Shown piece by piece: positions 9,191 through 45,720 of a stretch of DNA of 64,000 nt. The position numbers were made by a program, and so were the translations under genes. The notes beneath the pieces are model-generated. The model worked only from the letters and a program-made list of their open reading frames with translations, made no database searches and was not told the origin of the DNA. The stretch's first letter is position 1; each line of letters opens with the position of its first letter. The DNA is from an uncultured Lentisphaerales bacterium (GTDB lineage Bacteria > Verrucomicrobiota > Kiritimatiellia > RFP12 > JAAYLN01): positions 4,356-68,355 of the forward strand of contig CAZQKI010000002.1 in NCBI GenBank assembly GCA_964592855.1, read 5' to 3'.

Positions 9191-9261
9191 ACGCCGGGGT
9201 CACGTCAACTTCGTTGCCGCGCCGTTTGGAAGCCGAAAGGGCGCCATTATTCATCTCGCGC

Positions 9262-9358
9262 AAAGGGACGAAATGGACCCGGCGGTCCTCCGCCGTAGAG
9301 AAATGGAAGGTCGGGGCGGCTGCTCTTTTCGCCTACCGCCGGGGACGGCGGGGTCCAG
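9262..9358. repeat. REP-like element copy A (contains hairpin CGGCGGtcctCCGCCG)
   Basis: agggacgaaatggacccggcggtcctccgccgtagagaaatggaaggtcggggcggctgctcttttcgcctaccgccggggacggcggggtccag is near-identical to copy B 132 bp downstream; the core recurs at 45617. Confidence 0.7.
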
Positions 9359-9393
9359 TTCGTTCTATTTGCCGGAGGCCGAGGGGGCGGGTG

Positions 9394-9490
9394 CACAGGG
9401 ACGAAATGGACTCGGCGGTCCTCCGCCGTTGAGAATTGGAAGGTTGAGGCGGCTGCTCTTTTCGCCTGCCGCCGGGGACGGCGGGGTCCA
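9394..9490. repeat. REP-like element copy B
   Basis: About 90% identical direct repeat of copy A (ggactcggcggtcctccgccgttgagaattggaaggttgaggcggctgctcttttcgcctgccgccggggacggcggggtccag). Confidence 0.7.
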
Positions 9491-9705
9491 GTGCGGCTTC
9501 AGACGCCGAGTCGGGGGCACAATGAAGGGAGCCGTGGCAGGTTTGCGCCCCTTGTGCCTTGGGAGGCTATGCGCTTCATGGACAACGTCGGCATGCCTCT
9601 GCCGAATCTCGAGCATCCGACAAAGTTTGAGACAAAGCTCGCGACAAAGCTTCATGGGGGTAAACCAGACGGCCGGGGCGCAGATGCTCTGCAAGTCTCC
9701 TACTC

Positions 9706-9760
9706 GATCCAACTGGCCCGGCAAAGCCGGCCAGAGGCCGCACTGAATACTGAACCCTTG
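9706..9760. repeat. Second repeat module (hairpin CTGGCCCGGCAAAGCCGGCCAG + CACTGAA..CTGAACCCT)
   Basis: cgatccaactggcccggcaaagccggccagaggccgcactgaatactgaaccct matches gatccaactggcggccgccggccgccagaggccccactgaacgctgaaccct at 45653..45705. Confidence 0.65.
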
Positions 9761-15181: not shown

Positions 15182-17164
15182 ATGACTGGCATCATCTTCC
15201 AAATGAACGGTCCGGCGCGCCGTCTGCTGGCCGCCGTGGTCGGCGTGGCCCTTCTGGCCGGATGCGTGGCGACTCCGCCGGAGGAATTTTTCGTGCATCC
15301 GGATGTGGATCGTGCGACGGCGCTTTTCGATCAGGCCCGCTATGCGGACGCGATCATCGCCTGCACGGACATCAACCGGCGCGATCCGCTGACGCCCGGA
15401 CTGGTCGAACTGCAAAGCCGGATCATGCAGCGGCTGGCGGCACTGCGCCAGCGCGGGGTGGACATCCGGCAGGAGCCTTCGGATGCCTTGGCGATGGCGG
15501 ACTTGGACCGTCAGGGAATCCTGCCCGACACCTATCGCCAGCGCCGGCATGTCGTTGGCGAGACGAAGCCCATCAACAGCCTGCCGACCGCGATGCAGCA
15601 GATTCTGGATCGCCCCGTCAGCATCCATCTCGAGAATGTGATGCTCAGCGAGATCGTCGCGCAGATCGGCGCGTCCGAGAACGTCAACATGGTGGCGGAC
15701 GGTGCGCTGGACGACAAGACACTGACCATTCATGTCGAGAACACGCCGCTGGGCGAAGTGCTGGAGTATGTCGGCCGCAACCTGGGCGTGACCTTCGCCG
15801 TGGGGCAGAACATCATCTGGGTGACGCCGGGGAACAGCTCGGCGGGAACGGTGCCGCTGGTGACCCGCATCTACCGCCTGCGCAAGGGCCTTTCGAAAGA
15901 GGAGGTCGAGGGGGGGCCGGATTCGCTGGGTATCATCGAGGCGGTCACCCGCTTCGTTCCAACAGTCGAGGGTGCCGACATCCTCTTCAACATCAAGGCG
16001 CATGCGGTGATGGCGAAGAACTCGCGCGAGAACATGAAGTTGATCGAGGACATCATCGAGGTGCTGGACGTCCGCCCGCCGCAGGTGCTGATCGAAGCGC
16101 GCTTCATGAGCACCGGCGTGACGGACCTGCGGGAACTCGGCGTGGACTGGCTGTTGAATTCGTCGTATAAGGTGAGTGGCAAGGAAGGCGCTACGCGTTC
16201 CGCCGTGAATTCCGGGGCCACGATGGGCTTCACGGATTTCGCGAACCAGAAGTCGGGCTTGAACTTTACCTTCGAAGGCATTCTCACCGATCCGGCCTTC
16301 GAGGCCGTCATCCACGCGCTGGAAACGACGGGCAAGTCCCGCACGCTCTCCGTGCCGCGCGTCACGACGGTCAACAACCGCGAAGCTTCGCTGCGTGTCG
16401 GCGAAGACTTCCGCTATTTCGAAGAGTATGAAACCGAAGAGGTCCGGACCGGCACGACGCCGGAGGGACGCGACATCTACCAGTCGCGGCTCGTGCCGAC
16501 CGGCACCCCCACGCTGGAAGAGCTGGGCATCGAATTGGTCGTGACACCCAGCGTCGGCGCCGATCTGGCCACGATCTCGCTCAGCCTGGCGCCCGAGATC
16601 AGCGAGTTCGTCCGCTGGGAGTACTACGAGACCTCCTCGGGAGACAACAACAATAGCAGCAACAATGACAATAACAACACCACGACGAACGCCGGCTTGA
16701 GCATGATCAAGCTGCCGGTGTTCCGGCGGAGCCTGGTCGAGACCGAGGTGCTGGTGCGGAGCGGCGAAACGGTCGTCATGGGCGGCCTGGTCACCTCTTC
16801 GCGCGTCAAGGGCCGCGAGGGCATTCCCATCCTGTCGCGCCTGCCGCTCATCGGCCAGCTGTTCCGTCACGACACGTATGACGACATCAGCCAGAATCTG
16901 TTGATATTCGTCACCGCGACGCTGATCTCGGATGCGGGTGAAGAACTGATACCGCTGACGCCGAGCGAACCGGTCACGTCGGGCGGCAAGGTCGTCCTCG
17001 GCGAGAACGACGTCGTGGAGCCGGCGACGCCGTCCGATTCCGATGCGACGCCCGCGCCCGCCGATGCGACGCCCGCGCCCACCGCCACGCGCCCGCAGAC
17101 GACCCTCCCGGATGGCAAGCAGAATGGACCGACGGCTTTTCGCCGGGCGCCCGTCGATAATTGA
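15182..17164 (+). CDS. Secretin (PilQ/GspD family) lipoprotein
   Basis: Lipobox LLAGC, secretin_N-like repeats, C-terminal secretin domain (VLVRSGETVVMGGL...IPILSRLPLIGQLF). Contains an Asn-rich insert (SSGDNNNSSNNDNNNTTTNAG). Confidence 0.85.
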   Translation: MTGIIFQMNGPARRLLAAVVGVALLAGCVATPPEEFFVHPDVDRATALFDQARYADAIIACTDINRRDPLTPGLVELQSRIMQRLAALRQRGVDIRQEPSDALAMADLDRQGILPDTYRQRRHVVGETKPINSLPTAMQQILDRPVSIHLENVMLSEIVAQIGASENVNMVADGALDDKTLTIHVENTPLGEVLEYVGRNLGVTFAVGQNIIWVTPGNSSAGTVPLVTRIYRLRKGLSKEEVEGGPDSLGIIEAVTRFVPTVEGADILFNIKAHAVMAKNSRENMKLIEDIIEVLDVRPPQVLIEARFMSTGVTDLRELGVDWLLNSSYKVSGKEGATRSAVNSGATMGFTDFANQKSGLNFTFEGILTDPAFEAVIHALETTGKSRTLSVPRVTTVNNREASLRVGEDFRYFEEYETEEVRTGTTPEGRDIYQSRLVPTGTPTLEELGIELVVTPSVGADLATISLSLAPEISEFVRWEYYETSSGDNNNSSNNDNNNTTTNAGLSMIKLPVFRRSLVETEVLVRSGETVVMGGLVTSSRVKGREGIPILSRLPLIGQLFRHDTYDDISQNLLIFVTATLISDAGEELIPLTPSEPVTSGGKVVLGENDVVEPATPSDSDATPAPADATPAPTATRPQTTLPDGKQNGPTAFRRAPVDN

Positions 17165-17182: not shown

Positions 17183-18988
17183 ATGTCGCGCCTCAAACAA
17201 ATCGTTGGACTTGATCTTGGCACCCGCAATGTGCGGGCGGTCTGGGTGCAGCTCCGTGGCGGCGCGCCGCGCGTGGTGCGCACCGAACAGATGGCCCTGC
17301 CCCTCGAGGGGGGCGACACCGACGCGTTGCTGCACTCCTGGCTCGGACAGCTGGGCCTGCTCAAGGGGTTTGCTGCGTTGCAGATTTCGGGGACGCAGCT
17401 GGTCTTCCAGCCCGGACGTCTCAATCCCGGCGATCCGCGCTCGCCGCGGCAGGCGGCCGACATGGAGTTGGCGACCTTCAACGACATGGCGGGCGACAGC
17501 ATGGTCTCGGCGGTGGCGGCGCACGAATGGAGCCCCGGGCTTCGGGTCTACCTGATGGGCATGGCGCGGCCTTCGGTGATTGCCGCGACGCTGGCCGGCT
17601 TCGAGCCGATCGGCATCCGTCCGGCCGACTTGATTCCCGCACCGGTCGCCCTCTTCAATGCGCTCGCGCCGCTGGCGCCGAGCCAGGGAGGCACCGGCCT
17701 CTACGTCAACATCGGCCACAACCAGACGGAGCTGGCGATCGGCACGGCCAAGGGCATCTTGTTTGCACGCGCCTTCGCGATCGGCGGCAAGCAGTTCACC
17801 GAGGCGGTGGCGAAGCTGGCGGGCGTGCCGTTGACGCAAGCCGAGACCCAGAAGCAGCGGGAAGGGACGATCGAGACCGGCGGCCCCTTCGCCGAGGTGT
17901 TGCGGCCGCTGGCGGAACGCTGGTACACCCAGCTGGCGGCCTGCCTGAGCGCCTACCGCGGAGCCTTCACGGGCGAGCAGTTCGGTGTTTCGCGGATCAT
18001 CCTGTCCGGTGGCGGCGCGCAATTGCGCGGACTGCCGGCCTATGTTCAGCAGCGACTGGGGATTCCCGTCTGCCTGGCGGACGACCTGCCCGGCCTGGCC
18101 GGATTCCTGGGTGGCGGCGCATCGCGCGCCGGCGCACCGGTGGCTGCCGCATCCCCTGCAAGCAAGGCCGACCGGCCGACGTGGGGACAGTTCGACATCG
18201 CAGCGGGGCTGGCCATCACGGCGCTTGAACTGGCCCTCGCGCATCTTTCGCTCCTGCCGGAGAGTCTCCGCGGCGAAGTGGTCTTCCGTGAAAAGAAGCC
18301 CTATTTGATTGCCGCTTCGATCATGGGCGCCTTGACGCTGGGCGTGGTGACGGCCAGCATGGTCATCTCCTTGAGTGCGGAGACGGGCGTCCTGGACGCC
18401 GAACGCCAGGAACTGCGCCTTCGCGAGCAGATGGACAAGTCAATCACGGCCATCCGCCAGCGCGGCGAGGTGTTGCGGCAGCGTGGCGACCCCCTGCGTC
18501 AGCTGATTCTCGGCGGACCGATGATGCGTGAAGTGATCTCGCTGGTCGCCAACGCCATCTCGAAGGACGACTGGATTTCGATGATCTGCGAGGAGACCTC
18601 CTACAAAACGGCCAAAAAGGCGGGCGAGAAGCCCGCGCCGCCGGCCCCGCCGCCGCGCTCGGGGTTTTTCGTTCCCGGGTTCCGCAGCGCGACCAAGCCC
18701 GCCGCCAAGCCGACGGAGGCCGAATCGCTGCTGTCCGGGCTGACGCCTGCGCCGACCCCGTCCGATTTCAATGTCTACATCATCGAAGGCTACACGCCGG
18801 ATATGGGGTTGACGACCGTGAAGGCGATGATCCAGAATCTGGAGACGGCCACCCGCGTGCGGAAGGTGGACCTCCTGAGCGATGACCGCGTGCTTCCGCC
18901 GTCCCTCCCTGCGGAACTGCAGGAGCAGGGCGTGCAGCTGCCCAACATGCGCCGGTTCGTGATTCGGCTGGAGGTGAGTCCGCCATGA
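17183..18988 (+). CDS. pilMN: Type IV pilus assembly PilM (actin-like ATPase fold) fused to a PilN-like membrane domain
   Basis: IVGLDLGTRNVRAV and LYVNIGHNQTELAIG actin-fold motifs, followed by a TM segment (LIAASIMGALTLGVVTASMVISL) and coiled-coil region. Confidence 0.7.
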   Translation: MSRLKQIVGLDLGTRNVRAVWVQLRGGAPRVVRTEQMALPLEGGDTDALLHSWLGQLGLLKGFAALQISGTQLVFQPGRLNPGDPRSPRQAADMELATFNDMAGDSMVSAVAAHEWSPGLRVYLMGMARPSVIAATLAGFEPIGIRPADLIPAPVALFNALAPLAPSQGGTGLYVNIGHNQTELAIGTAKGILFARAFAIGGKQFTEAVAKLAGVPLTQAETQKQREGTIETGGPFAEVLRPLAERWYTQLAACLSAYRGAFTGEQFGVSRIILSGGGAQLRGLPAYVQQRLGIPVCLADDLPGLAGFLGGGASRAGAPVAAASPASKADRPTWGQFDIAAGLAITALELALAHLSLLPESLRGEVVFREKKPYLIAASIMGALTLGVVTASMVISLSAETGVLDAERQELRLREQMDKSITAIRQRGEVLRQRGDPLRQLILGGPMMREVISLVANAISKDDWISMICEETSYKTAKKAGEKPAPPAPPPRSGFFVPGFRSATKPAAKPTEAESLLSGLTPAPTPSDFNVYIIEGYTPDMGLTTVKAMIQNLETATRVRKVDLLSDDRVLPPSLPAELQEQGVQLPNMRRFVIRLEVSPP

Positions 18989-20428: not shown

Positions 20429-22204
20429 ATGGCTGAAGTTTCCGAATCCCCCGCCGTTGCTCCCGCGTCCGTGCCGCCGCCTGCCGTCGAGCAGGATCTG
20501 CGCTTCTACGGCGCCGACCTTGTCCAGGATTTCGTGACGCATCTGCTGGAGCATCAGCTGATTTCCGAGGAGCAGTTGACCGAGGTGCAGAATCGCTCCT
20601 CGCTCACGGGACAGCCGATCGACAAGCTCCTGATCGACGAGGCCATCATCGATGAGAAGGCGCTCCTCGCCGCGTACAGCGAGCTGAGCGGCATCCCCTT
20701 CCATAAAATCGGCGATTTCAAGATCGACCCCAGTCTCGCGGAGCGGGTCAATTCGCGACTGGCGCTGCGCCACCGCGTGGTGCCCGTGGCGCTGGCCGAC
20801 GGCGTCCTGACCCTGGCTGTCGCTCGCGTACCCCCGTCCATGACGGTCGAAGGCCTGCGCATGGTGCTGGAGATGCCCATCGCCTTCGTCCTCTGCACCG
20901 ACAGCGACGTCTCGCGGTCGCTGACCCATTTCTACGGCCTGGGGGCGGAGACGGTCGAAGAGCTGATCGCCAACGCGCCCGTCGATGAAAACGAAGACGC
21001 GGATGATGACATTTCCTCCATCTCGGACGAGACGGGCATGGTGCGTTTCATCAACATGATCATTGCCGAGGGCATCCGCATGGACGCCACCGACATCCAC
21101 ATCGAGCCCTTTGAGGACACGCTGCGCCTCCGTTGCCGCGTGGATGGCATCCTGCAGGAGGTGCCGCTGCCCAAGGGGGTCGAGAAGCTCCGGCGGTCGG
21201 TCTCCTCGGCCGTGAAGATCATGGCGGCAATGGACATCGCTGAACGCCGCAAGCCGCACGACGGACGCATCAAGGTCCGGTATGACAACGGCGAATACGA
21301 CTTGCGCGTCTCGGTCCTCCCCACCGGCTACGGGGAGACCTGCTGTCTGCGTATCCTGAACCGCAGTTCGGTCTTCACCGACCTCGACCGCCTCGGCCTC
21401 TCGCCCAATCAGCTGCCGAAGATCCGCGCCATGACCGACCTGCCGCATGGCGTCATTCTGCTGACGGGGCCGACGGGCAGCGGCAAGACGACCACGCTGT
21501 ATGCCATCCTGGCGCGGTTGAACGTCACGGGGGTGAAGATCATCACCGTGGAGGATCCCGTCGAATACCGGATGGACGGGGTGAGCCAGGTCCAGGTTCA
21601 CAGCAAGATCGACCTGACCTTCGCAAACGTGCTGCGGTCGGTGCTCCGCCACGACCCCGACGTGATTCTGATCGGGGAAATCCGCGACTCCGAAACGGCG
21701 GACATCGCCGTCCGCTCCTCGCTGACGGGCCATCTGGTGTTAAGCACGCTGCACACCAACGATGCCCCGAGCGCCATCACGCGTCTGACGGACATGGGCG
21801 TCGAACCCTATCTGATCGCCTCCTGCGTGGAGGGCATCGTCGCCCAGCGCCTCGTGCGCAAAGTCTGCACACAATGCGCACATCCCGATGAGCTGGCGCC
21901 GGGAATCCGCAGCGAGATCCTCGCCTTCTACCCGAGCTTCGCGGATACGGCCAAGTTCGTGCTGGGCAACGGCTGCCCCAACTGCGCCTTCACCGGGTAT
22001 CGCGGACGAAGCGCGATCAACGAAGTGATGGTGATGAGCGACCCCCTCCGCAGCCTGGTGGTGCGCCGTGATCCCGCGAATCTCATCAAGGATCTCGCGA
22101 TCGCCGAGGGGATGATCACCCTCCGCCGCGATGGCTACCTTCGCGTCGTCGAGGGGCGCACCTCGGTCGAAGAGGTGCTGCGCGTCGTCGGCAAGGGTGA
22201 CTAA
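20429..22204 (+). CDS. Type II secretion / type IV pilus assembly ATPase (GspE/PilB family)
   Basis: Walker A LLTGPTGSGKTTT, GspE signature VEDPVEY, His box, tetracysteine motif CTQC...CPNC. Confidence 0.9.
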   Translation: MAEVSESPAVAPASVPPPAVEQDLRFYGADLVQDFVTHLLEHQLISEEQLTEVQNRSSLTGQPIDKLLIDEAIIDEKALLAAYSELSGIPFHKIGDFKIDPSLAERVNSRLALRHRVVPVALADGVLTLAVARVPPSMTVEGLRMVLEMPIAFVLCTDSDVSRSLTHFYGLGAETVEELIANAPVDENEDADDDISSISDETGMVRFINMIIAEGIRMDATDIHIEPFEDTLRLRCRVDGILQEVPLPKGVEKLRRSVSSAVKIMAAMDIAERRKPHDGRIKVRYDNGEYDLRVSVLPTGYGETCCLRILNRSSVFTDLDRLGLSPNQLPKIRAMTDLPHGVILLTGPTGSGKTTTLYAILARLNVTGVKIITVEDPVEYRMDGVSQVQVHSKIDLTFANVLRSVLRHDPDVILIGEIRDSETADIAVRSSLTGHLVLSTLHTNDAPSAITRLTDMGVEPYLIASCVEGIVAQRLVRKVCTQCAHPDELAPGIRSEILAFYPSFADTAKFVLGNGCPNCAFTGYRGRSAINEVMVMSDPLRSLVVRRDPANLIKDLAIAEGMITLRRDGYLRVVEGRTSVEEVLRVVGKGD

Positions 22205-22213
22205 TGCGGGCCG

Positions 22214-22262
22214 GTAATCAGTAATCAGTCATCAGTAATCAGTGATCAGTAATCGGTGATCA
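22214..22262. repeat. Tandem heptanucleotide repeat (GTNATCA)x7
   Basis: gtaatca gtaatca gtcatca gtaatca gtgatca gtaatcg gtgatca read directly, 10 nt after the pilB stop. Confidence 0.9.
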
Positions 22263-22337
22263 GTGGGACAAGTTAGTTTCTCGCAAAGGCGCAAAGGCCG
22301 CAAAGGGTTTCAACCTTGACGTCTTTGGGTAACGTTC

Positions 22338-22453
22338 GAAAATCTGGACGCTCAGCCCCGAAAGGTGGGGCGAGCCGTCTCGGCGAGCCGCGCGATGGGG
22401 TGCGGGGGCGGCTCGGCGGGGACGCCTCGCCCTACCTTTGAAAATCTGGGCGC
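22338..22453. repeat. MITE-like palindromic element flanked by 14-bp direct repeats GAAAATCTGG(A/G)CGC
   Basis: DR at 22338..22351 and 22440..22453. Between them a ~17-bp outer stem (ccgaaaggtggggcgag / ctcgccctacctttg) enclosing inner hairpins gccgtctcggc and cgagccgc...gcggctcg. Confidence 0.6.
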
Positions 22454-22491
22454 ATGAGCCGAGTCGAGTAAGTGAGGATCGGGGAGCGTAT

Positions 22492-22815
22492 CCGGTTAAG
22501 GGTGGCGGTTAAGAGTAAGCGGTTAAGAGTGTGCGTTGCTCAGGACACTTAACCGTACACTTCGTCGCCACCCTTAAGCGGAATGGCGCGTACTTAAGGT
22601 CGTTTTGGGACAAAACGCCGTGATAGGCTTTGCCTGACGTTGTTTGTGGGTGTGTGAGTTTGTGAGTATGTGGGAAGTGTGCGAAAAGACAGGCGATACG
22701 TGACATTATTTCGCTCACACACTCACACACACACCCACACACCCACGCACCAGACAATTTGACCAACCATCGTCATGGCAATGGGCTTAAGTACGCGCCA
22801 TTCCCCTTAAGCGGA
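22492..22815. repeat. Nested inverted-repeat structure (candidate structured ncRNA or MITE)
   Basis: Tandem cggttaag(a/g)gt x3 (22492..22535). A 27-28 bp outer IR cccttaagcggaatggcgcgtacttaag (22571..22598) vs cttaagtacgcgccattccccttaagcgg (22786..22814). An inner ~40-bp GT-rich / CA-rich imperfect hairpin (22641..22751). A small hairpin cgttttgggacaaaacg at ~22602. The listed ORF 22509..22766(-) lies inside and is considered spurious. Confidence 0.6.
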
Positions 22816-23075
22816 TACCCGATCCCCGCTTATGCGATCCCGCCTGGGGGCGCCGGCAGCGGGAGAATCGAGGACGAGGACGAGAACGATGAAGATTGAT
22901 CGTTGTCGTGATCCTCGTAGCGATCTTCAACTGAGCATCCACGAGAAATCTCATATCTCATCCCGCTACGAGCACGGGATGGTCCACATAGCGCGCCGCG
23001 TAGGAAATACAGGCGCGAATATCCGCGGCATCCAAGTCTGGAAAGACGACAGTTTAGCCATTTCGCCCGTCAGGA

Positions 23076-23624
23076 TCAACTCGGTAGAACCAGCCCTTTT
23101 GCAACGGCGTCGGCAGTGGCTGCGCCGGCGAGCCGGCGGACGATGGCGAGGGCGAAGTCGAAGCTGGTGCCGGGACCCTGGCTGGTGATGATGTTGCCGT
23201 CCTCGACGACGCGGTCATCGATGCGCCGGGGCACGGTCAGCGCCCCGGCCACGCCGGGATGACAGGTCACGGTACATCCCGCCAGGAGGCCGGCGGCCTG
23301 CAGCACCAGCGGCCCGGCGCAGATCGCGGCCACGGGCTTGCCCTGCTCGACGAAGGTGCGCAAGGCCTGCAGCAGGCGTTCGTCCTTCTGCAGCAGCCGG
23401 GTGCCGCCCATGCCGCCGGGGATGGCGATCATGTCGAACGTGCCGGGATCGATTTTCGACCAGGCCGTGTCGGCCACCAGCTTGACGCCGCGCGAGGCGG
23501 TCACCTGCAGCGCATCGGTCATCGCGACGGCGACGGCTTCGATCTTCGCCCGCCGGAGGACATCCAGCAGGATCACGCATTCCATCTCTTCGACGCCTTC
23601 AGCCAGGGGAACCAGAACGCGCAT
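23076..23624 (-). CDS. DJ-1/PfpI family protein
   Basis: AAICAGP nucleophile elbow motif and overall DJ-1/ThiJ pattern (IAIPGGMGG). Confidence 0.8.
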   Translation of the reverse strand: MRVLVPLAEGVEEMECVILLDVLRRAKIEAVAVAMTDALQVTASRGVKLVADTAWSKIDPGTFDMIAIPGGMGGTRLLQKDERLLQALRTFVEQGKPVAAICAGPLVLQAAGLLAGCTVTCHPGVAGALTVPRRIDDRVVEDGNIITSQGPGTSFDFALAIVRRLAGAATADAVAKGLVLPS

Positions 23625-23643: not shown

Positions 23644-25509
23644 TTAGCGGGCGAGGCGGCGGCGCGCCTGGCGCGTAAGGGGTTCGCCGCCTTCTCTACC
23701 GGCCGCCGGCGGAGCCGTGAAATCGGTGGGTGCCGCCGCGCTCTTTTTCTTCTGCCAGAGGAGCTGCGCGATGGCGAGGACCTGGCTCACGGTCCAGTAG
23801 AGGACGAGGGCGGAGGGCATCGTATAGAACATGAAGAGCATCATCCCGGGCATCATCCACATCATCATCTTCTGCTGCGCGGGATCGCCCATGGCGGGGG
23901 TGAGCTTGCTTTGCAGCAGCATCGTGCCCGCCATGAAGAAGGGGAGGATGTTGAGCGCGGGGACCAGGGGAAGGACGCCGGCCAGGAGATTCTCCGGCTC
24001 GCTGAGGTCGGCGATCCAGAGGAAGGGGGCGAAGCGCAGTTCGACGGCGCTGCGCAGAACGGTGAAGAGCGCGATGAAGACCGGGATCTGGACCAGCATG
24101 GGGAGGCAGCTCGACAGGGGGTTGACCTTGTTCTCGCGGTAGATCTTCCACGTCTCCTGCTGGAGCTTCTGGGGTTCGGTCTTGAACTGCGCCTGGATTT
24201 CCTTGAGCTTGGGCTGGATGGCCTGCATCCGCTTCATGCTCTCGGTGCTCTTGTGGGTGAGCGGCCAGAAGACGATGCGGACCAGGAGGGTCAGGAGGAT
24301 GATGGCGATGCCGTAGTTCGGGATCAGGCCGTAGAAGAAGTTCAGGGTGGGGACCAGCAGGACGCACATCCACTTGAAGGTGCCGAACTGCATGATTTCG
24401 GCGGAGCGGGGGGCATAGCGCTGCAGCAGGGCGAGCTTCTTCGGGCCGACGTAGAGCGTGTAGTTGCGTTCGAGGGTCGCTCCGGCGGCGCCGATGATGG
24501 CGGCGGGGAAGCGGATCTGCGCGGCGACATGCTGCAGGGTCAGGGGGCCGGCTCCGTCGAGGCGGGTGACGTCGACGCGGTAGCCGGCGTTGGTGGCGTC
24601 GCTCGTGAAGGCCTGCACGAAGAAGCGGGACTTGAGCGCGACCCACTCCTGGGGTTCGCCGACGTGCGTCGTGGCGACGAGGGGAAGGCCGTCGGCGGAT
24701 GGCGCGCCACCGCAGCCGCCGCCGCCCTTCCCGCCGGTGAAGAGCTTGTTCAGCTTGGTGTCCCAGTGGCGGACCTTGCCGAGGCGTCCGCCTTCGTCGC
24801 GCTGTGCGGCGAGTGTGTCGACGCCCAGGGTGTCGTTCTTGGAGAGTCCGCGATGGACGGCGCCCAGCGAGATTCCGCAGGCGGGGAGGGGGTGGGGAGT
24901 GTCGCCGGCATTGACGATCCGGTCGCGGACGGCGATGCGGTAATCGGGAAGGATCGAGATCCGGCGCTCCAAAGTCAGGCCGGACTCGTTCCGGCAGGCG
25001 AGAGTGACTGTCGTTTCGCCATCGGTTGAGACAAGGGTGTAGTCGGCATTGGCGCCGAAGCCGGGGATGTCCTTGTAGGCGAGGGCCGGAGAGGGGGCAA
25101 AGTCGAGGACGACGGGCTTGCTGCCGCGCTCCACGGTCGAGCGGTAGTCGAGGAGGGTTGCATCGCGCAGCGTGCCGCCCTTAGAGGAGAAGGTGAGCAT
25201 CATCTTGTCATTGGTCAGGACGGCGGTCTGTTCGGGGACGTCCGTGGCGGGTTCGTCGGCCGAAACGACGGGCGCGGGCGCTGCTGCCGGTGCGGCGGGG
25301 ACGCTGGTCGCCGTATTCGTGGCCTGCAGGAAGGCGGCGGAATTCTGCGCGTCGGGCGAAAGCGCAACCGCGGTCGTGTTGGTCGCGGCGGCGGCAGCGC
25401 GTTCGCGGACGGCGGCGATCCGCTGCTGGGTGACCCGGTTCTGATAGAAGAGCCAGCCGAGCAGCAGCACGGCGAGAACGACGACGATCGAGATATCCTG
25501 TTTGTTCAT
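23644..25509 (-). CDS. yidC: Membrane protein insertase YidC
   Basis: N-terminal TM then large periplasmic domain, C-terminal 5-TM core with conserved YidC motifs (GLIPNYGIAIILLTLLVRIVFWPL, QPKLKEIQ). Start at MNKQDISIVVVL (25509); the upstream 51 codons of the listed ORF are a Pro/Arg-rich artefact. ATGA overlap with the yidD stop. Confidence 0.85.
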   Translation of the reverse strand: MNKQDISIVVVLAVLLLGWLFYQNRVTQQRIAAVRERAAAAATNTTAVALSPDAQNSAAFLQATNTATSVPAAPAAAPAPVVSADEPATDVPEQTAVLTNDKMMLTFSSKGGTLRDATLLDYRSTVERGSKPVVLDFAPSPALAYKDIPGFGANADYTLVSTDGETTVTLACRNESGLTLERRISILPDYRIAVRDRIVNAGDTPHPLPACGISLGAVHRGLSKNDTLGVDTLAAQRDEGGRLGKVRHWDTKLNKLFTGGKGGGGCGGAPSADGLPLVATTHVGEPQEWVALKSRFFVQAFTSDATNAGYRVDVTRLDGAGPLTLQHVAAQIRFPAAIIGAAGATLERNYTLYVGPKKLALLQRYAPRSAEIMQFGTFKWMCVLLVPTLNFFYGLIPNYGIAIILLTLLVRIVFWPLTHKSTESMKRMQAIQPKLKEIQAQFKTEPQKLQQETWKIYRENKVNPLSSCLPMLVQIPVFIALFTVLRSAVELRFAPFLWIADLSEPENLLAGVLPLVPALNILPFFMAGTMLLQSKLTPAMGDPAQQKMMMWMMPGMMLFMFYTMPSALVLYWTVSQVLAIAQLLWQKKKSAAAPTDFTAPPAAGREGGEPLTRQARRRLAR

Positions 25510-25775
25510 CAAGGTGTTCCTAGCGAAGTGTGGGAGGTGCAACAGCGGGGCGGCGGGACGGGGTCGGGGCCGCAGGGGCCAAAGGGGTGGCAGCGCAGGA
25601 GGCGCCTGACGCCCAGCGCGAGTCCGCGGAGCGGGCCGTGGAGGCGCAGCGCCTCGATGCAATAGTTCGAGCAGGAGGGTTCAAACCGGCAGCACCCGTT
25701 GAAAAGCGGCGCCAGCACGACTTGGTAGGCCCGGACGCACAGGATCATCAGTTGGACGAGGAACCGGGCGATCAT
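25509..25775 (-). CDS. yidD: Membrane protein insertion efficiency factor YidD
   Basis: MIARFLVQLMILCVRAYQVVLAPLFNGCCRFEPSCSNYCIEALRLHG matches YidD (DUF37) with conserved Cys residues. Only the C-terminal 88 codons of the listed ORF 25509..26030. Confidence 0.8.
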   Translation of the reverse strand: MIARFLVQLMILCVRAYQVVLAPLFNGCCRFEPSCSNYCIEALRLHGPLRGLALGVRRLLRCHPFGPCGPDPVPPPRCCTSHTSLGTP

Positions 25776-45001: not shown

Positions 45002-45284
45002 GGCAGTTCTCTAAAAAGATGTGGGTAAGCGGGACTCGATCCCCGACCTCTGGTTGATTTCTGAAGCAGTGGTGAAAATGGCTTTCAAGCTGATGAAAAC
45101 GGCATCTAGCTACTCTGTTCGAGCGACCGTGAGCAGGGGTTTGCCGAGCCAAGCGAACAGGTGAATTTTATCAATTTATCACTTCGCTGGCAAGGATGCG
45201 ACAGGATACAATTGACCTTGAACGGTCCGATACGTCCCGCTCCACCGCTCGCGCCCGGATCGATGCGTCCGCACAAGCTTCGGC

Positions 45285-45530
45285 GGACGCTTACGGCGAC
45301 GCTTACGGTCGACGACAAGACGGTGCTTCTCGTAATCCGTAAGCGTCGCCGAACGCGTCATCCGGGTCCCACGGCAGTTACCCGATTCTTTGTCTCGATC
45401 TTTGTCTCGATCTTCGTCGATCTGAAGCTATGTCCCGATCCTCGTCCCGATCTTTGTCGGTCGACAATGATCGGAACAAGGATCAAGACAAGGATCAGGA
45501 CAACGATCCGGAGCCCCGATACTGACCGAG
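45285..45530. repeat. Repeat-rich leader region upstream of hisD (direct and inverted repeats)
   Basis: gacgcttacgg x2 with inverted copy ccgtaagcgtcgcc (45290..45355). ctttgtctcgat x2 plus gtcccgatc repeats, mirrored by gatcaagacaaggatcaggacaa (45385..45510). Confidence 0.6.
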
Positions 45531-45598: not shown

Positions 45599-45720
45599 TC
45601 TCGCGCAAAGGTGATCTGGACTCGGCGGTCCTCCGCCGTAGAGAAATCCCACTTGATCCAACTGGCGGCCGCCGGCCGCCAGAGGCCCCACTGAACGCTG
45701 AACCCTGTCCCCTGAACCCT
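45599..45720. repeat. REP-like composite element (same family as 9262..9760)
   Basis: cgcgcaaagg...ggactcggcggtcctccgccgtagagaaat followed by gatccaactggcggccgccggccgccagaggccccactgaacgctgaaccct. Both modules adjacent here, separated by ~300 bp at the first locus. Confidence 0.7.

What the first reader, a model, noticed from the sequence alone, without database searches (positions are those of the whole stretch)
22338..22453. Palindromic ~90-bp element with flanking direct repeats (possible MITE with target-site duplication)
tcGAAAATCTGGACGC ... GAAAATCTGGGCGC bracket a segment whose ends pair over ~17 bp (ccgaaaggtggggcgag / ctcgccctacctttg) and which contains two internal hairpins (gccgtctcggc and cgagccgc-N-gcggctcg). 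Direct repeats at the boundaries of a perfect palindrome are the classic footprint of a small non-autonomous insertion. Alternatively it is a cruciform/three-way-junction RNA.
Basis: seen in the sequence. Interest (0 to 1): 0.5.

Follow-up and report, generated by a model that had tools for sequence, protein, structure and literature searches.

The report
REP-type hairpin doublet after pilB gene
The 80-base hairpin is most likely a pair of inverted copies of a short, dispersed "REP-like" repeat (a known kind of small bacterial repeat element) from an uncultured PVC-group bacterium, so it is a new family of an ordinary kind, not a classic MITE.

Summary
The feature is real. Window 22361-22439 folds into one long imperfect hairpin (z about -4.6) and is bracketed by GAAAATCTGGRCGC. 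It lies between convergent genes, 157 nt after a PilB-like ATPase gene. Each arm is a copy of a ~25-nt unit: a GT[A/G]G tag followed by a small imperfect palindrome, GGC-GA-GNNC-loop-GNNC-GA-GCC. I found this unit as singletons and as tag-outward inverted doublets, in 47 distinct upstream contexts among 53 occurrences in the window and other contigs. Those include phage-like contigs with 8-10 units each. The inner stem covaries. One phage contig (L161) carries the same two-arm combination, and similarity stops exactly at the hairpin feet. This anatomy matches GTAG-tagged REPs arranged as a head-head dimer, or REPIN. Such repeats are already described in PVC bacteria, though not with this sequence. 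The target-site-duplication reading is not supported. None of 8 other doublets has a flanking repeat above chance, and the left repeat does not abut the hairpin. Three things remain open. No RAYT transposase gene was found in the sequence available. The copy number in the source genome is unknown (two units in 64 kb). The flanking repeat is unexplained. Verdict: new family of a known kind, modest interest.

The parts
22361..22439 (.). Whole hairpin: a tag-outward (head-head) doublet of two REP-like units plus a spacer. The foot is AAAGGT...ACCTTT.
   Evidence: Folds. Inverted repeat I7. Similarity to the L161 10434-10498 doublet starts and stops at these feet.
22365..22389 (+). REP-like unit A, GTGG-tagged: GTGG-GGC-GA-GCCG-TCT-CGGC-GA-GCC.
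   Evidence: Sequence. It matches the family pattern with a paired inner stem. The single-arm ssDNA fold is (((..((((...))))..))), -7.8 kcal/mol. Near-identical copies are L085 2123-2148 and L161 10472-10497.
22390..22409 (.). Spacer and apical region between the two units (GCGCGATGGGGTGCGGGGGC). It is partly paired at its base.
   Evidence: The spacer differs in length and sequence from the L161 copy.
22410..22435 (-). REP-like unit B, GTAG-tagged: GTAG-GGC-GA-GGCG-TCCC-CGCC-GA-GCC.
   Evidence: Identical 26-28-mers occur as singletons in IMG/VR contigs L096 and L097. Close variants are at L161 10435 and 11305 and in L288.
22338..22351 (+). Left copy of the flanking direct repeat, GAAAATCTGGACGC. 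It is separated from the hairpin foot by TCAGCCCCG. Whether it belongs to the element is doubtful.
   Evidence: It is not shared with other family members.
22440..22453 (+). Right copy of the flanking direct repeat, GAAAATCTGGGCGC. It abuts the hairpin foot, and its CTGGGCG can pair with CGCTCAG at 22349-22355.

Best explanation
The hairpin is a head-head dimer of two units of a GT[A/G]G-tagged repetitive extragenic palindrome (REP) family, which makes it a REPIN-like element. It sits in the spacer between convergent operons of an uncultured PVC bacterium; the closest MAGs are labelled Kiritimatiellia or Lentisphaerales.

Shown here:
- The unit is about 25 nt: the tag GT[A/G]G followed by an imperfect palindrome with an invariant GA/GA mismatch and a covarying inner stem.
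- The unit is dispersed in many unrelated sequence contexts, both singly and as tag-outward inverted pairs that form long hairpins.
- The same two-arm combination recurs in an unrelated phage-like contig, with similarity ending sharply at the hairpin feet.

Inferred, not shown:
- Like other GTAG REPs and REPINs, it was copied into place as single-stranded DNA by a REP-associated tyrosine (HUH/Y1) transposase acting in trans. That mechanism makes no target duplication.
- Once transcribed at the 3' end of the pilus/secretion operon, the stable hairpin probably acts as a 3' stabiliser or a barrier to read-through into the convergent DJ-1/YidC genes.

The flanking GAAAATCTGGRCGC repeat is most likely a local duplication in a repeat-prone spacer rather than a transposition footprint.
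For: - Unit anatomy, including the GTGG and GTAG tags.
- The arms occur alone elsewhere. The 28-nt stretch containing unit B is identical in L096 and L097. Unit A with its CCGAAAGGT foot is in L085. More singletons are in L287, L288 and L005.
- Multi-copy contigs: 10 pattern matches in IMGVR_UViG_3300033121_002247 (L116, L218, L248), and 8 pattern-matching units in IMGVR_UViG_3300022555_003223 (L161, L231).
- Dispersal: 53 occurrences lie in 47 distinct upstream contexts.
- Structure: of 44 unique sequences selected only by head and tail, 15 have both inner pairs Watson-Crick, against about 3 expected (p about 2e-7). Five different pair combinations occur. The covariation score is 0.132 against 0.061 +/- 0.026, reached by 1 of 500 shuffles.
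- Tag-outward doublets that form long hairpins are found in L116, L125, L144, L161, L172 and L231.
- The same heterodimer occurs at L161 10434-10498, with about 90% arm identity, a different spacer and no flank similarity.
- Position: 157 nt after the T2SSE/PilB-like stop codon, between convergent genes. This matches the reported preference of REPs (PMC3733652).
- Literature: GTAG REPs occur in PVC bacteria. Published features include degenerate GTRG and GTGG tags, unpaired GA in stems, a predominance of head-head dimers and sub-families with complementary stem changes (PMC3733652). REPINs are defined as inverted REP doublets with hairpin and clover folds (PMC3116915).
Against: - No RAYT/Y1 transposase gene was found in the window or in any held locus. 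This rests on a regex scan and on tblastn with 11 published RAYT/TIRYT sequences, whose only hits are in L056 and L119, two unrelated loci with no unit. The rest of the source genome could not be searched.
- Only two units occur in the 64-kb window, and one weak unit in the roughly 135 kb held from the closest relatives. That is far sparser than in classic REP-rich genomes.
- The family is denser in phage-like contigs than in the chromosome. REPINs are reported to be chromosomal and vertically inherited, so this is unexpected.
- The flanking direct repeat is statistically unusual and the model does not explain it.
- Single-arm hairpins are not individually significant (z -0.8 to -1.1).
- Many hits of the loose search patterns are chance matches.
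Confidence: 0.6

Rival explanations
1. It is a classic MITE: a deletion derivative of a DDE-type insertion sequence, with terminal inverted repeats, that inserted downstream of the pilB-like gene and duplicated GAAAATCTGGRCGC as its target site.
For: A flanking 14-nt direct repeat matches at 13 of 14 positions, and such a repeat is rare by chance. The element has inverted ends. A looser 20-21-nt reading of the repeat would abut an element starting at CCGAAAGGT, a foot it shares with L085.
Against: None of 8 other doublets of the family has a flanking repeat above chance. Homology with L161 excludes the repeat. The left repeat lies 9-10 nt from the foot. Duplications of 14-21 nt are longer than the usual 2-13 nt (general knowledge). 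The arms occur as free-standing singletons with their own conserved fold, which MITE terminal repeats do not do. No insertion sequence with these ends was seen.
Confidence: 0.1
2. It is a phage-derived or phage-centred regulatory hairpin family, such as terminators or operator-like sites of Mu-like phages of PVC bacteria. The chromosomal copy would then be a stray or a relic rather than a transposase-mobilised REP.
For: The highest densities are in phage-like contigs: 10 units in 31 kb and 8 in 26 kb. L161 encodes a Mu portal protein and Gp37, and L125 a tail-collar protein. Identical 24-25-mers recur in many different viral contigs.
Against: IMG/VR was the only collection I could scan repeatedly, so the phage bias is partly a sampling effect. 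The window has no phage genes nearby. Copies also occur in non-viral metagenome and MAG contigs (L085, L005). A GT[A/G]G tag combined with dimer organisation is the REP signature (PMC3733652).
Confidence: 0.12
3. It is a locally evolved cis-acting RNA hairpin, a terminator or 3'-end stabiliser of the pilus/secretion operon, with no mobility. Its resemblance to other hairpins would be convergent.
For: It is a very stable hairpin downstream of an operon, between convergent genes. The two transitions between the arms give G-U pairs on the sense strand, and the + strand folds about 10 kcal/mol better. The relative L005 has a different hairpin at a similar position.
Against: Identity of 25-28 nt with sequences in unrelated contexts cannot be convergence. 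It is not conserved in orthologous spacers. There is no U-tract and no terminator call at this site. Two G-U pairs are not statistically meaningful. This role is compatible with the REP reading as a secondary function.
Confidence: 0.08
4. It is a chance palindrome or an assembly artefact.
For: GC-rich DNA forms many hairpins, and metagenome contigs break near this locus.
Against: The z-score is -4.6, with 0 of 200 shuffles as good. Five independent assemblies carry the identical sequence. There is also the family evidence above.
Confidence: 0.01

Closest known systems
GTAG-tagged REPs (Di Nocera et al. 2013, PMC3733652; Nunvar et al. 2010), including those of the PVC bacteria Opitutus terrae, Rhodopirellula baltica and Planctomyces
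   Same: - A 20-40-nt imperfect palindrome with an unpaired GTAG tag at one end. A GTRG or GTGG tag is tolerated, as in O. terrae GTAG-20.
- Unpaired GA inside the stem, as reported for P. aeruginosa GTAG-24.
- Sub-families with complementary stem changes.
- Both singletons and dimers occur, with the GTAG-outside (head-head) dimer the commonest.
- Location downstream of genes and between convergent genes.
   Different: The sequence matches none that I could check. The peptides encoded by O. terrae REPs in Additional file 3 differ, and no paper in the library contains the motif. Density in the available chromosome sequence is low. No RAYT has been linked to it. Many copies lie in phage-like contigs.
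REPINs (Bertels & Rainey 2011, PMC3116915)
   Same: Two inverted REPs plus a spacer form a long hairpin, with an alternative clover fold. The doublet recurs as a unit in another context with sharp borders. The span between the two tags is 71 bp, similar to the 71-bp GI REPIN of P. fluorescens SBW25.
   Different: A within-genome population of near-identical copies and a cognate single-copy RAYT are not demonstrated. The arms are a fixed heterodimer, one of the CCGTCTC type and one of the GCGTCCC type. The presence of units in phage genomes conflicts with the reported strictly vertical inheritance.
Bacterial MITEs (ERIC, NEMIS/Correia, RUP and others)
   Same: Small, non-coding, intergenic elements with inverted ends that are able to fold.
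   Different: MITEs have terminal repeats derived from a DDE insertion sequence and a short target duplication at every copy. Here the arms are autonomous tagged palindromes, and duplications are absent from other copies.
IS200/IS605 subterminal hairpins and their miniature derivatives (PATEs)
   Same: Imperfect hairpins recognised as ssDNA by HUH/Y1 enzymes, with no target duplication. This is the mechanistic model for REP mobilisation.
   Different: Those hairpins flank a transposase gene and differ between the left and right ends. They insert next to a specific tetra- or pentanucleotide. No such insertion sequence is seen here.

Membership tests
GTAG-tagged REP | Short (20-40 nt) imperfect palindrome able to form a stem-loop | tested here: met
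   Units at 22365-22389 (+) and 22410-22435 (-) fold as (((..((((loop))))..))) at -7.8 and -7.0 kcal/mol as ssDNA. Across the family, 15 of 44 unique sequences keep both inner pairs, against about 3 expected.
GTAG-tagged REP | Unpaired GTAG tetranucleotide at one end (GTRG or GTGG variants accepted; PMC3733652) | tested here: met
   GTGG at 22365-22368 and CTAC at 22432-22435, which reads GTAG on the - strand. Family members carry GTGG, GTAG or, rarely, GGAG.
GTAG-tagged REP | Many copies dispersed in extragenic DNA of one genome | tested here: inconclusive
Elsewhere there are 53 occurrences in 47 distinct contexts, with 10 units in one 31-kb contig.
GTAG-tagged REP | Sub-families that differ by complementary stem changes | tested here: met
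   Inner-stem combinations seen are CG/CG, CC/GG, GC/GC, AC/GT and GG/CC. The covariation score was reached by 1 of 500 shuffles.
GTAG-tagged REP | Association with a RAYT (Y1/HUH transposase) gene flanked by the same REPs (a REPtron) | tested here: inconclusive
   No homologue in the window or in the unit-carrying loci, by regex and by tblastn with 11 published RAYT/TIRYT sequences. The source genome beyond 64 kb could not be searched.
REPIN | [quoted passage not shown] | tested here: met
   The tags face outward and the spacer is 20 nt.
REPIN | The doublet, not the single REP, is the copied unit | tested here: inconclusive
   One other copy of the same heterodimer, L161 10434-10498, has sharp borders. 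However, many singletons also exist, and no within-genome population is available.
MITE | Target-site duplication directly abutting both ends, at every copy | tested here: not met
   The left repeat is 9-10 nt from the foot. None of 8 other doublets has a flanking repeat above chance, with longest shared words of 3-7 nt.
MITE | Terminal repeats shared with an autonomous insertion sequence | not tested
   No insertion sequence with these ends was seen in the held loci, but there was no systematic search.
Intrinsic terminator | GC-rich stem-loop followed directly by a U-run | tested here: not met
   The scan reports no terminator-like site at 22361-22445. The tail is TTTGAAAATCT.
Any Rfam RNA family | Score at or above the family's gathering threshold | tested here: not met
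   0 matches in the whole window at gathering thresholds. Only sub-threshold noise appears in 22150-22950.

The most novel reading that the evidence does not exclude
The GT[A/G]G-GGC-GA-stem unit may be a hairpin element that travels with, or is propagated by, transposable (Mu-like) phages of PVC bacteria rather than by a domesticated chromosomal RAYT. That would provide a horizontal route for REP/REPIN-like repeats. In this reading the 14-21-nt flanking duplication in the window is the footprint of a different, still unknown insertion mechanism.
Probability: 0.1. Interest if true: 0.6.

Novelty: new member of a known kind. Interest (0 to 1): 0.3.

Why it matters
If correct, this extends GTAG-type REP/REPIN elements to an uncultured Kiritimatiellia/Lentisphaerales-like lineage and defines a new unit sequence that can be used as a search seed. 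It also shows the same units sitting in phage genomes, which bears on whether such repeats are strictly vertically inherited. In practical terms, these hairpins and the neighbouring palindromic microsatellites help explain why metagenome assemblies of this lineage break at this spacer. They also generate spurious arginine/proline-rich ORFs. None of this changes understanding of a major pathway.

Tried and rejected
- tRNA/tmRNA and Rfam searches found nothing.
- Metagenome scan with the 20-mer CCGAAAGGTGGGGCGAGCCG gave only 2 hits. It did not return the L001-L004 contigs that carry the element, so the source samples are not in that collection. It therefore says little about copy number. L086 may be a chance match or a remnant.
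- Genome-collection scan with PilB gave the taxonomy. In the three closest contigs, however, the gene lies at or within about 260 nt of a contig end (L005, L006, L007).
- Orthologous loci fetched through protein look-ups show that the spacers are not alignable with the window. L095 has no spacer at all, so no empty site can be defined.
- The loose hairpin-foot scan (104 hits) is at about my estimate of chance. Only the two-strand hits and the strongly folding hits were used.
- The control scan was badly designed. CCGAGC is contained in the real ...CCGAGCC tail, so it shares loci with the test scan. I replaced it with the pairing test.
- A protein-database search with the six-frame translation of the hairpin found no hit.
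- blastn against annotated plasmids and phages gave only chance-level GC-rich matches.
- Literature searches for the motif returned only unrelated primer hits.
- I considered a sigma-54 promoter in CTGGACGCTCAGCC and rejected it on spacing, by inspection only.
- I ran no further search on RAYTs.

Full report
**What is there**

The region 22205-23075 is an 870-nt non-coding gap between convergent genes. Upstream, on the + strand, lies a secretion/pilus operon:
- secretin, 15182-17164
- PilM-like protein, 17183-18988
- two unknown ORFs
- a T2SSE/PilB-like ATPase, 20429-22204

Downstream, on the - strand, lie DJ-1/PfpI (23076-23624) and YidC (23644-25662).

The finding sits 157 nt after the ATPase stop codon. 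The repeats GAAAATCTGGACGC (22338-22351) and GAAAATCTGGGCGC (22440-22453), the inverted ends and the inner hairpins are all as described. The segment folds into one long imperfect hairpin, 22361-22439:
- as RNA, -69.9 kcal/mol on the + strand and -59.3 on the - strand, z about -4.6, with 0 of 200 shuffles as good
- as ssDNA, -33.5 kcal/mol, z -4.2

It is not a perfect palindrome and not a three-way junction in the minimum-energy fold. Four independent metagenome assemblies carry the identical sequence, so it is not an artefact. No tRNA or Rfam family matches.

**Organism**

The closest PilB homologues, at 82-89% identity, come from MAGs labelled Lentisphaerales or Kiritimatiellia. The source is therefore an uncultured PVC-superphylum bacterium.

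**The key observation**

The core is single-copy in the window. However, each arm turned out to be a recurrent sequence in its own right.
- A 20-mer scan of metagenome contigs hit L085, where CCGAAAGGTGGGGCGAGCCGTCCCCGGCGAGCCG occurs once, without a partner.
- A scan of IMG/VR with the arm consensus hit two contigs. Both carry GGTAGGGCGAGGCGTCCCCGCCGAGCCG, identical over 28 nt to the reverse complement of the window's 3' arm, again as single copies.
- A profile built from the arms, together with further scans, found more copies.

The unit is GT[A/G]G, then GGC-GA-G(N)NC, a 3-4-nt loop (TCC, TCCC, TCT or TACC), then G(N)NC-GA-GCC.

I selected sequences only by the constant head and tail and then tested the inner stem. 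Of 44 unique sequences, 15 have both inner positions Watson-Crick paired, against about 3 expected (p about 2e-7). Five different complementary combinations occur. A formal count on the 25-nt subset gives a covariation score reached by only 1 of 500 shuffles. The GA/GA positions never vary.

**Dispersal and arrangement**

Identical units occur in different surroundings: 53 occurrences fall into 47 distinct upstream contexts. They occur both singly and as inverted pairs with the tags outward, and those pairs form long, nearly perfect hairpins in L116, L125, L144, L161, L172 and L231.

Two phage-like contigs are rich in units. IMGVR_UViG_3300033121_002247 has 10 pattern matches in 31 kb. IMGVR_UViG_3300022555_003223 has 8 pattern-matching units in 26 kb and encodes a Mu-type portal protein and Gp37.

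L161 10434-10498 is the same heterodimer as the window element, with one GCGTCCC-type arm and one CCGTCTC-type arm. In the pairwise alignment, similarity begins at AAGGTAGGG and ends at GCCC(C/T)ACC. The spacer differs, and the flanks share nothing. This defines the borders of the unit that is copied, and it excludes the GAAAATCTGG repeat from that unit.

**Comparison with known elements**

Di Nocera et al. 2013 (PMC3733652) define GTAG-tagged REPs as 20-40-nt palindromes with an unpaired GTAG at one end. The paper reports several features that match this family:
- They occur in PVC bacteria (O. terrae, R. baltica, Planctomyces).
- The tag can degenerate to GTRG, and is GTGG in most O. terrae GTAG-20 units.
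- Stems can contain unpaired GA.
- Families split into sub-families by complementary stem changes.
- Dimers with GTAG outside (head-head) are the commonest arrangement.
- REPs lie mostly downstream of genes, between unidirectional or convergent ORFs.

Bertels and Rainey 2011 (PMC3116915) define REPINs as inverted REP doublets with a spacer. Every anatomical criterion I could test is met.

The specific sequence is not in the searchable literature, and the O. terrae REP-encoded peptides listed in that paper are different. I recall from memory that Pseudomonas REPs begin GT[A/G]GGAGCGAGC, which resembles GT[A/G]GGGCGAG. I did not test this.

**What is not established**

1. No RAYT gene has been linked to the family. 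A motif regex and tblastn with 11 RAYT/TIRYT sequences taken from Additional file 5 of PMC3733652 found nothing in the window or in any unit-bearing locus.
2. The copy number in the source genome is unknown. There are two units in 64 kb, and one weak unit (L005 2298-2320) in the roughly 135 kb held from relatives.
3. No empty site can be shown. The relatives' PilB-downstream spacers are unalignable, and in L095 the next gene follows directly.

**The flanking direct repeat**

The repeat is real and unlikely by chance (about 0.5%), but it is not a family trait.
- None of 8 other doublets has a flanking repeat above chance.
- The left copy is 9-10 nt from the hairpin foot.
- Y1/IS200-type transposition makes no duplication (established knowledge; cited in PMC3116915).

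I therefore read it as a local duplication in a spacer that is full of tandem and inverted short repeats. A looser 20-21-nt reading that abuts CCGAAAGGT keeps a small probability for an insertion footprint.

**Likely mechanism**

Shown: there is a dispersed, structurally constrained, GT[A/G]G-tagged palindrome family, and the window element is a head-head dimer of it.

Inferred: the element was mobilised as ssDNA by a Y1 transposase acting in trans. Once transcribed, it has a secondary role as a 3' hairpin at the end of the operon. The + strand folds better, through two G-U pairs, but two pairs are not significant.

Rivals are a DDE-type MITE (0.1), a phage-centred regulatory hairpin family (0.12), a purely local RNA element (0.08) and chance or artefact (0.01).

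**Verdict**

The MITE/TSD interpretation is partly supported in spirit but wrong in kind. This is a new sequence family of a known kind of element (REP/REPIN) and of modest interest. The presence of the units in phage genomes, and the much more striking neighbouring 380-nt composite palindrome, are the parts most worth a further look.

Noticed in passing
window 22464-22843: Immediately after the finding lies a ~380-nt nested composite palindrome built from short tandem units and their inverted complements: GGTTAAGRGT x3 at 22493-22531, and GTTTGTGA x4 at 22642-22672 facing CACACACCCACA-type repeats at 22716-22750. The arm pairs are 22464-83/22818-37, 22488-502/22804-18 and 22573-98/22786-811 (96% complementary). 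The ssDNA fold is -104 kcal/mol with z = -11.5. It is far more extreme than the finding itself.
   Followed up: partly
window 22214-22306; L087 11880-12090: Directly after the PilB-like stop codon come (GTAATCA)x7 and then (CGCAAAGG)x3. The relative L087 has the same two-module layout with different units, (GGAAMTCA)n followed by (CGCCAAGG)n, and it occurs there twice. This suggests a lineage-wide architecture of spacer microsatellites.
   Followed up: partly
window 9260-9495 and 45617-45647: A 133-nt unit is tandemly duplicated at 92% identity. Its core, TGGACYCGGCGGTCCTCCGCCGT (a small hairpin), recurs 36 kb away. Both sites are preceded by TCTCGCGCAAAGG, which resembles TCTCGCAAAGGCGCAAAGG upstream of the finding. 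This looks like a second dispersed intergenic element. The core was found in none of the 288 fetched loci.
   Followed up: partly
window 45281-45364 and 45387-45512: There is a hairpin with 39-nt arms (79% complementary). Next to it, (TCTTTGTCTCGA)n faces its complement (GACAAGGATCAG)n, forming an inverted microsatellite pair.
   Followed up: no
window 9745-9760, 45695-45720; L091 3525-3550: Runs of CTGAACC-like heptamers lie just upstream of start codons in the window and in a relative.
   Followed up: no
L001-L007 (contig ends): Seven independent metagenome or MAG contigs end inside the PilB-like gene or within about 1 kb after it. This is consistent with assembly failure at the repeat-rich spacer.
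   Followed up: no
L125 7985-8145 and 11850-12020: In this phage-like contig, the two doublets share about 40 nt of flanking sequence on each side (ACCGACGGAGCCAWTTGCTGGGGA ... GGTGRGAC.GAGGTCGC). There, the repeated unit is longer than the hairpin.
   Followed up: no
L116 7069-7457: Two units in inverted orientation bracket a ~390-nt segment holding a small ORF, and the 3' unit overlaps the end of that ORF. No RAYT-like protein is encoded there.
   Followed up: partly
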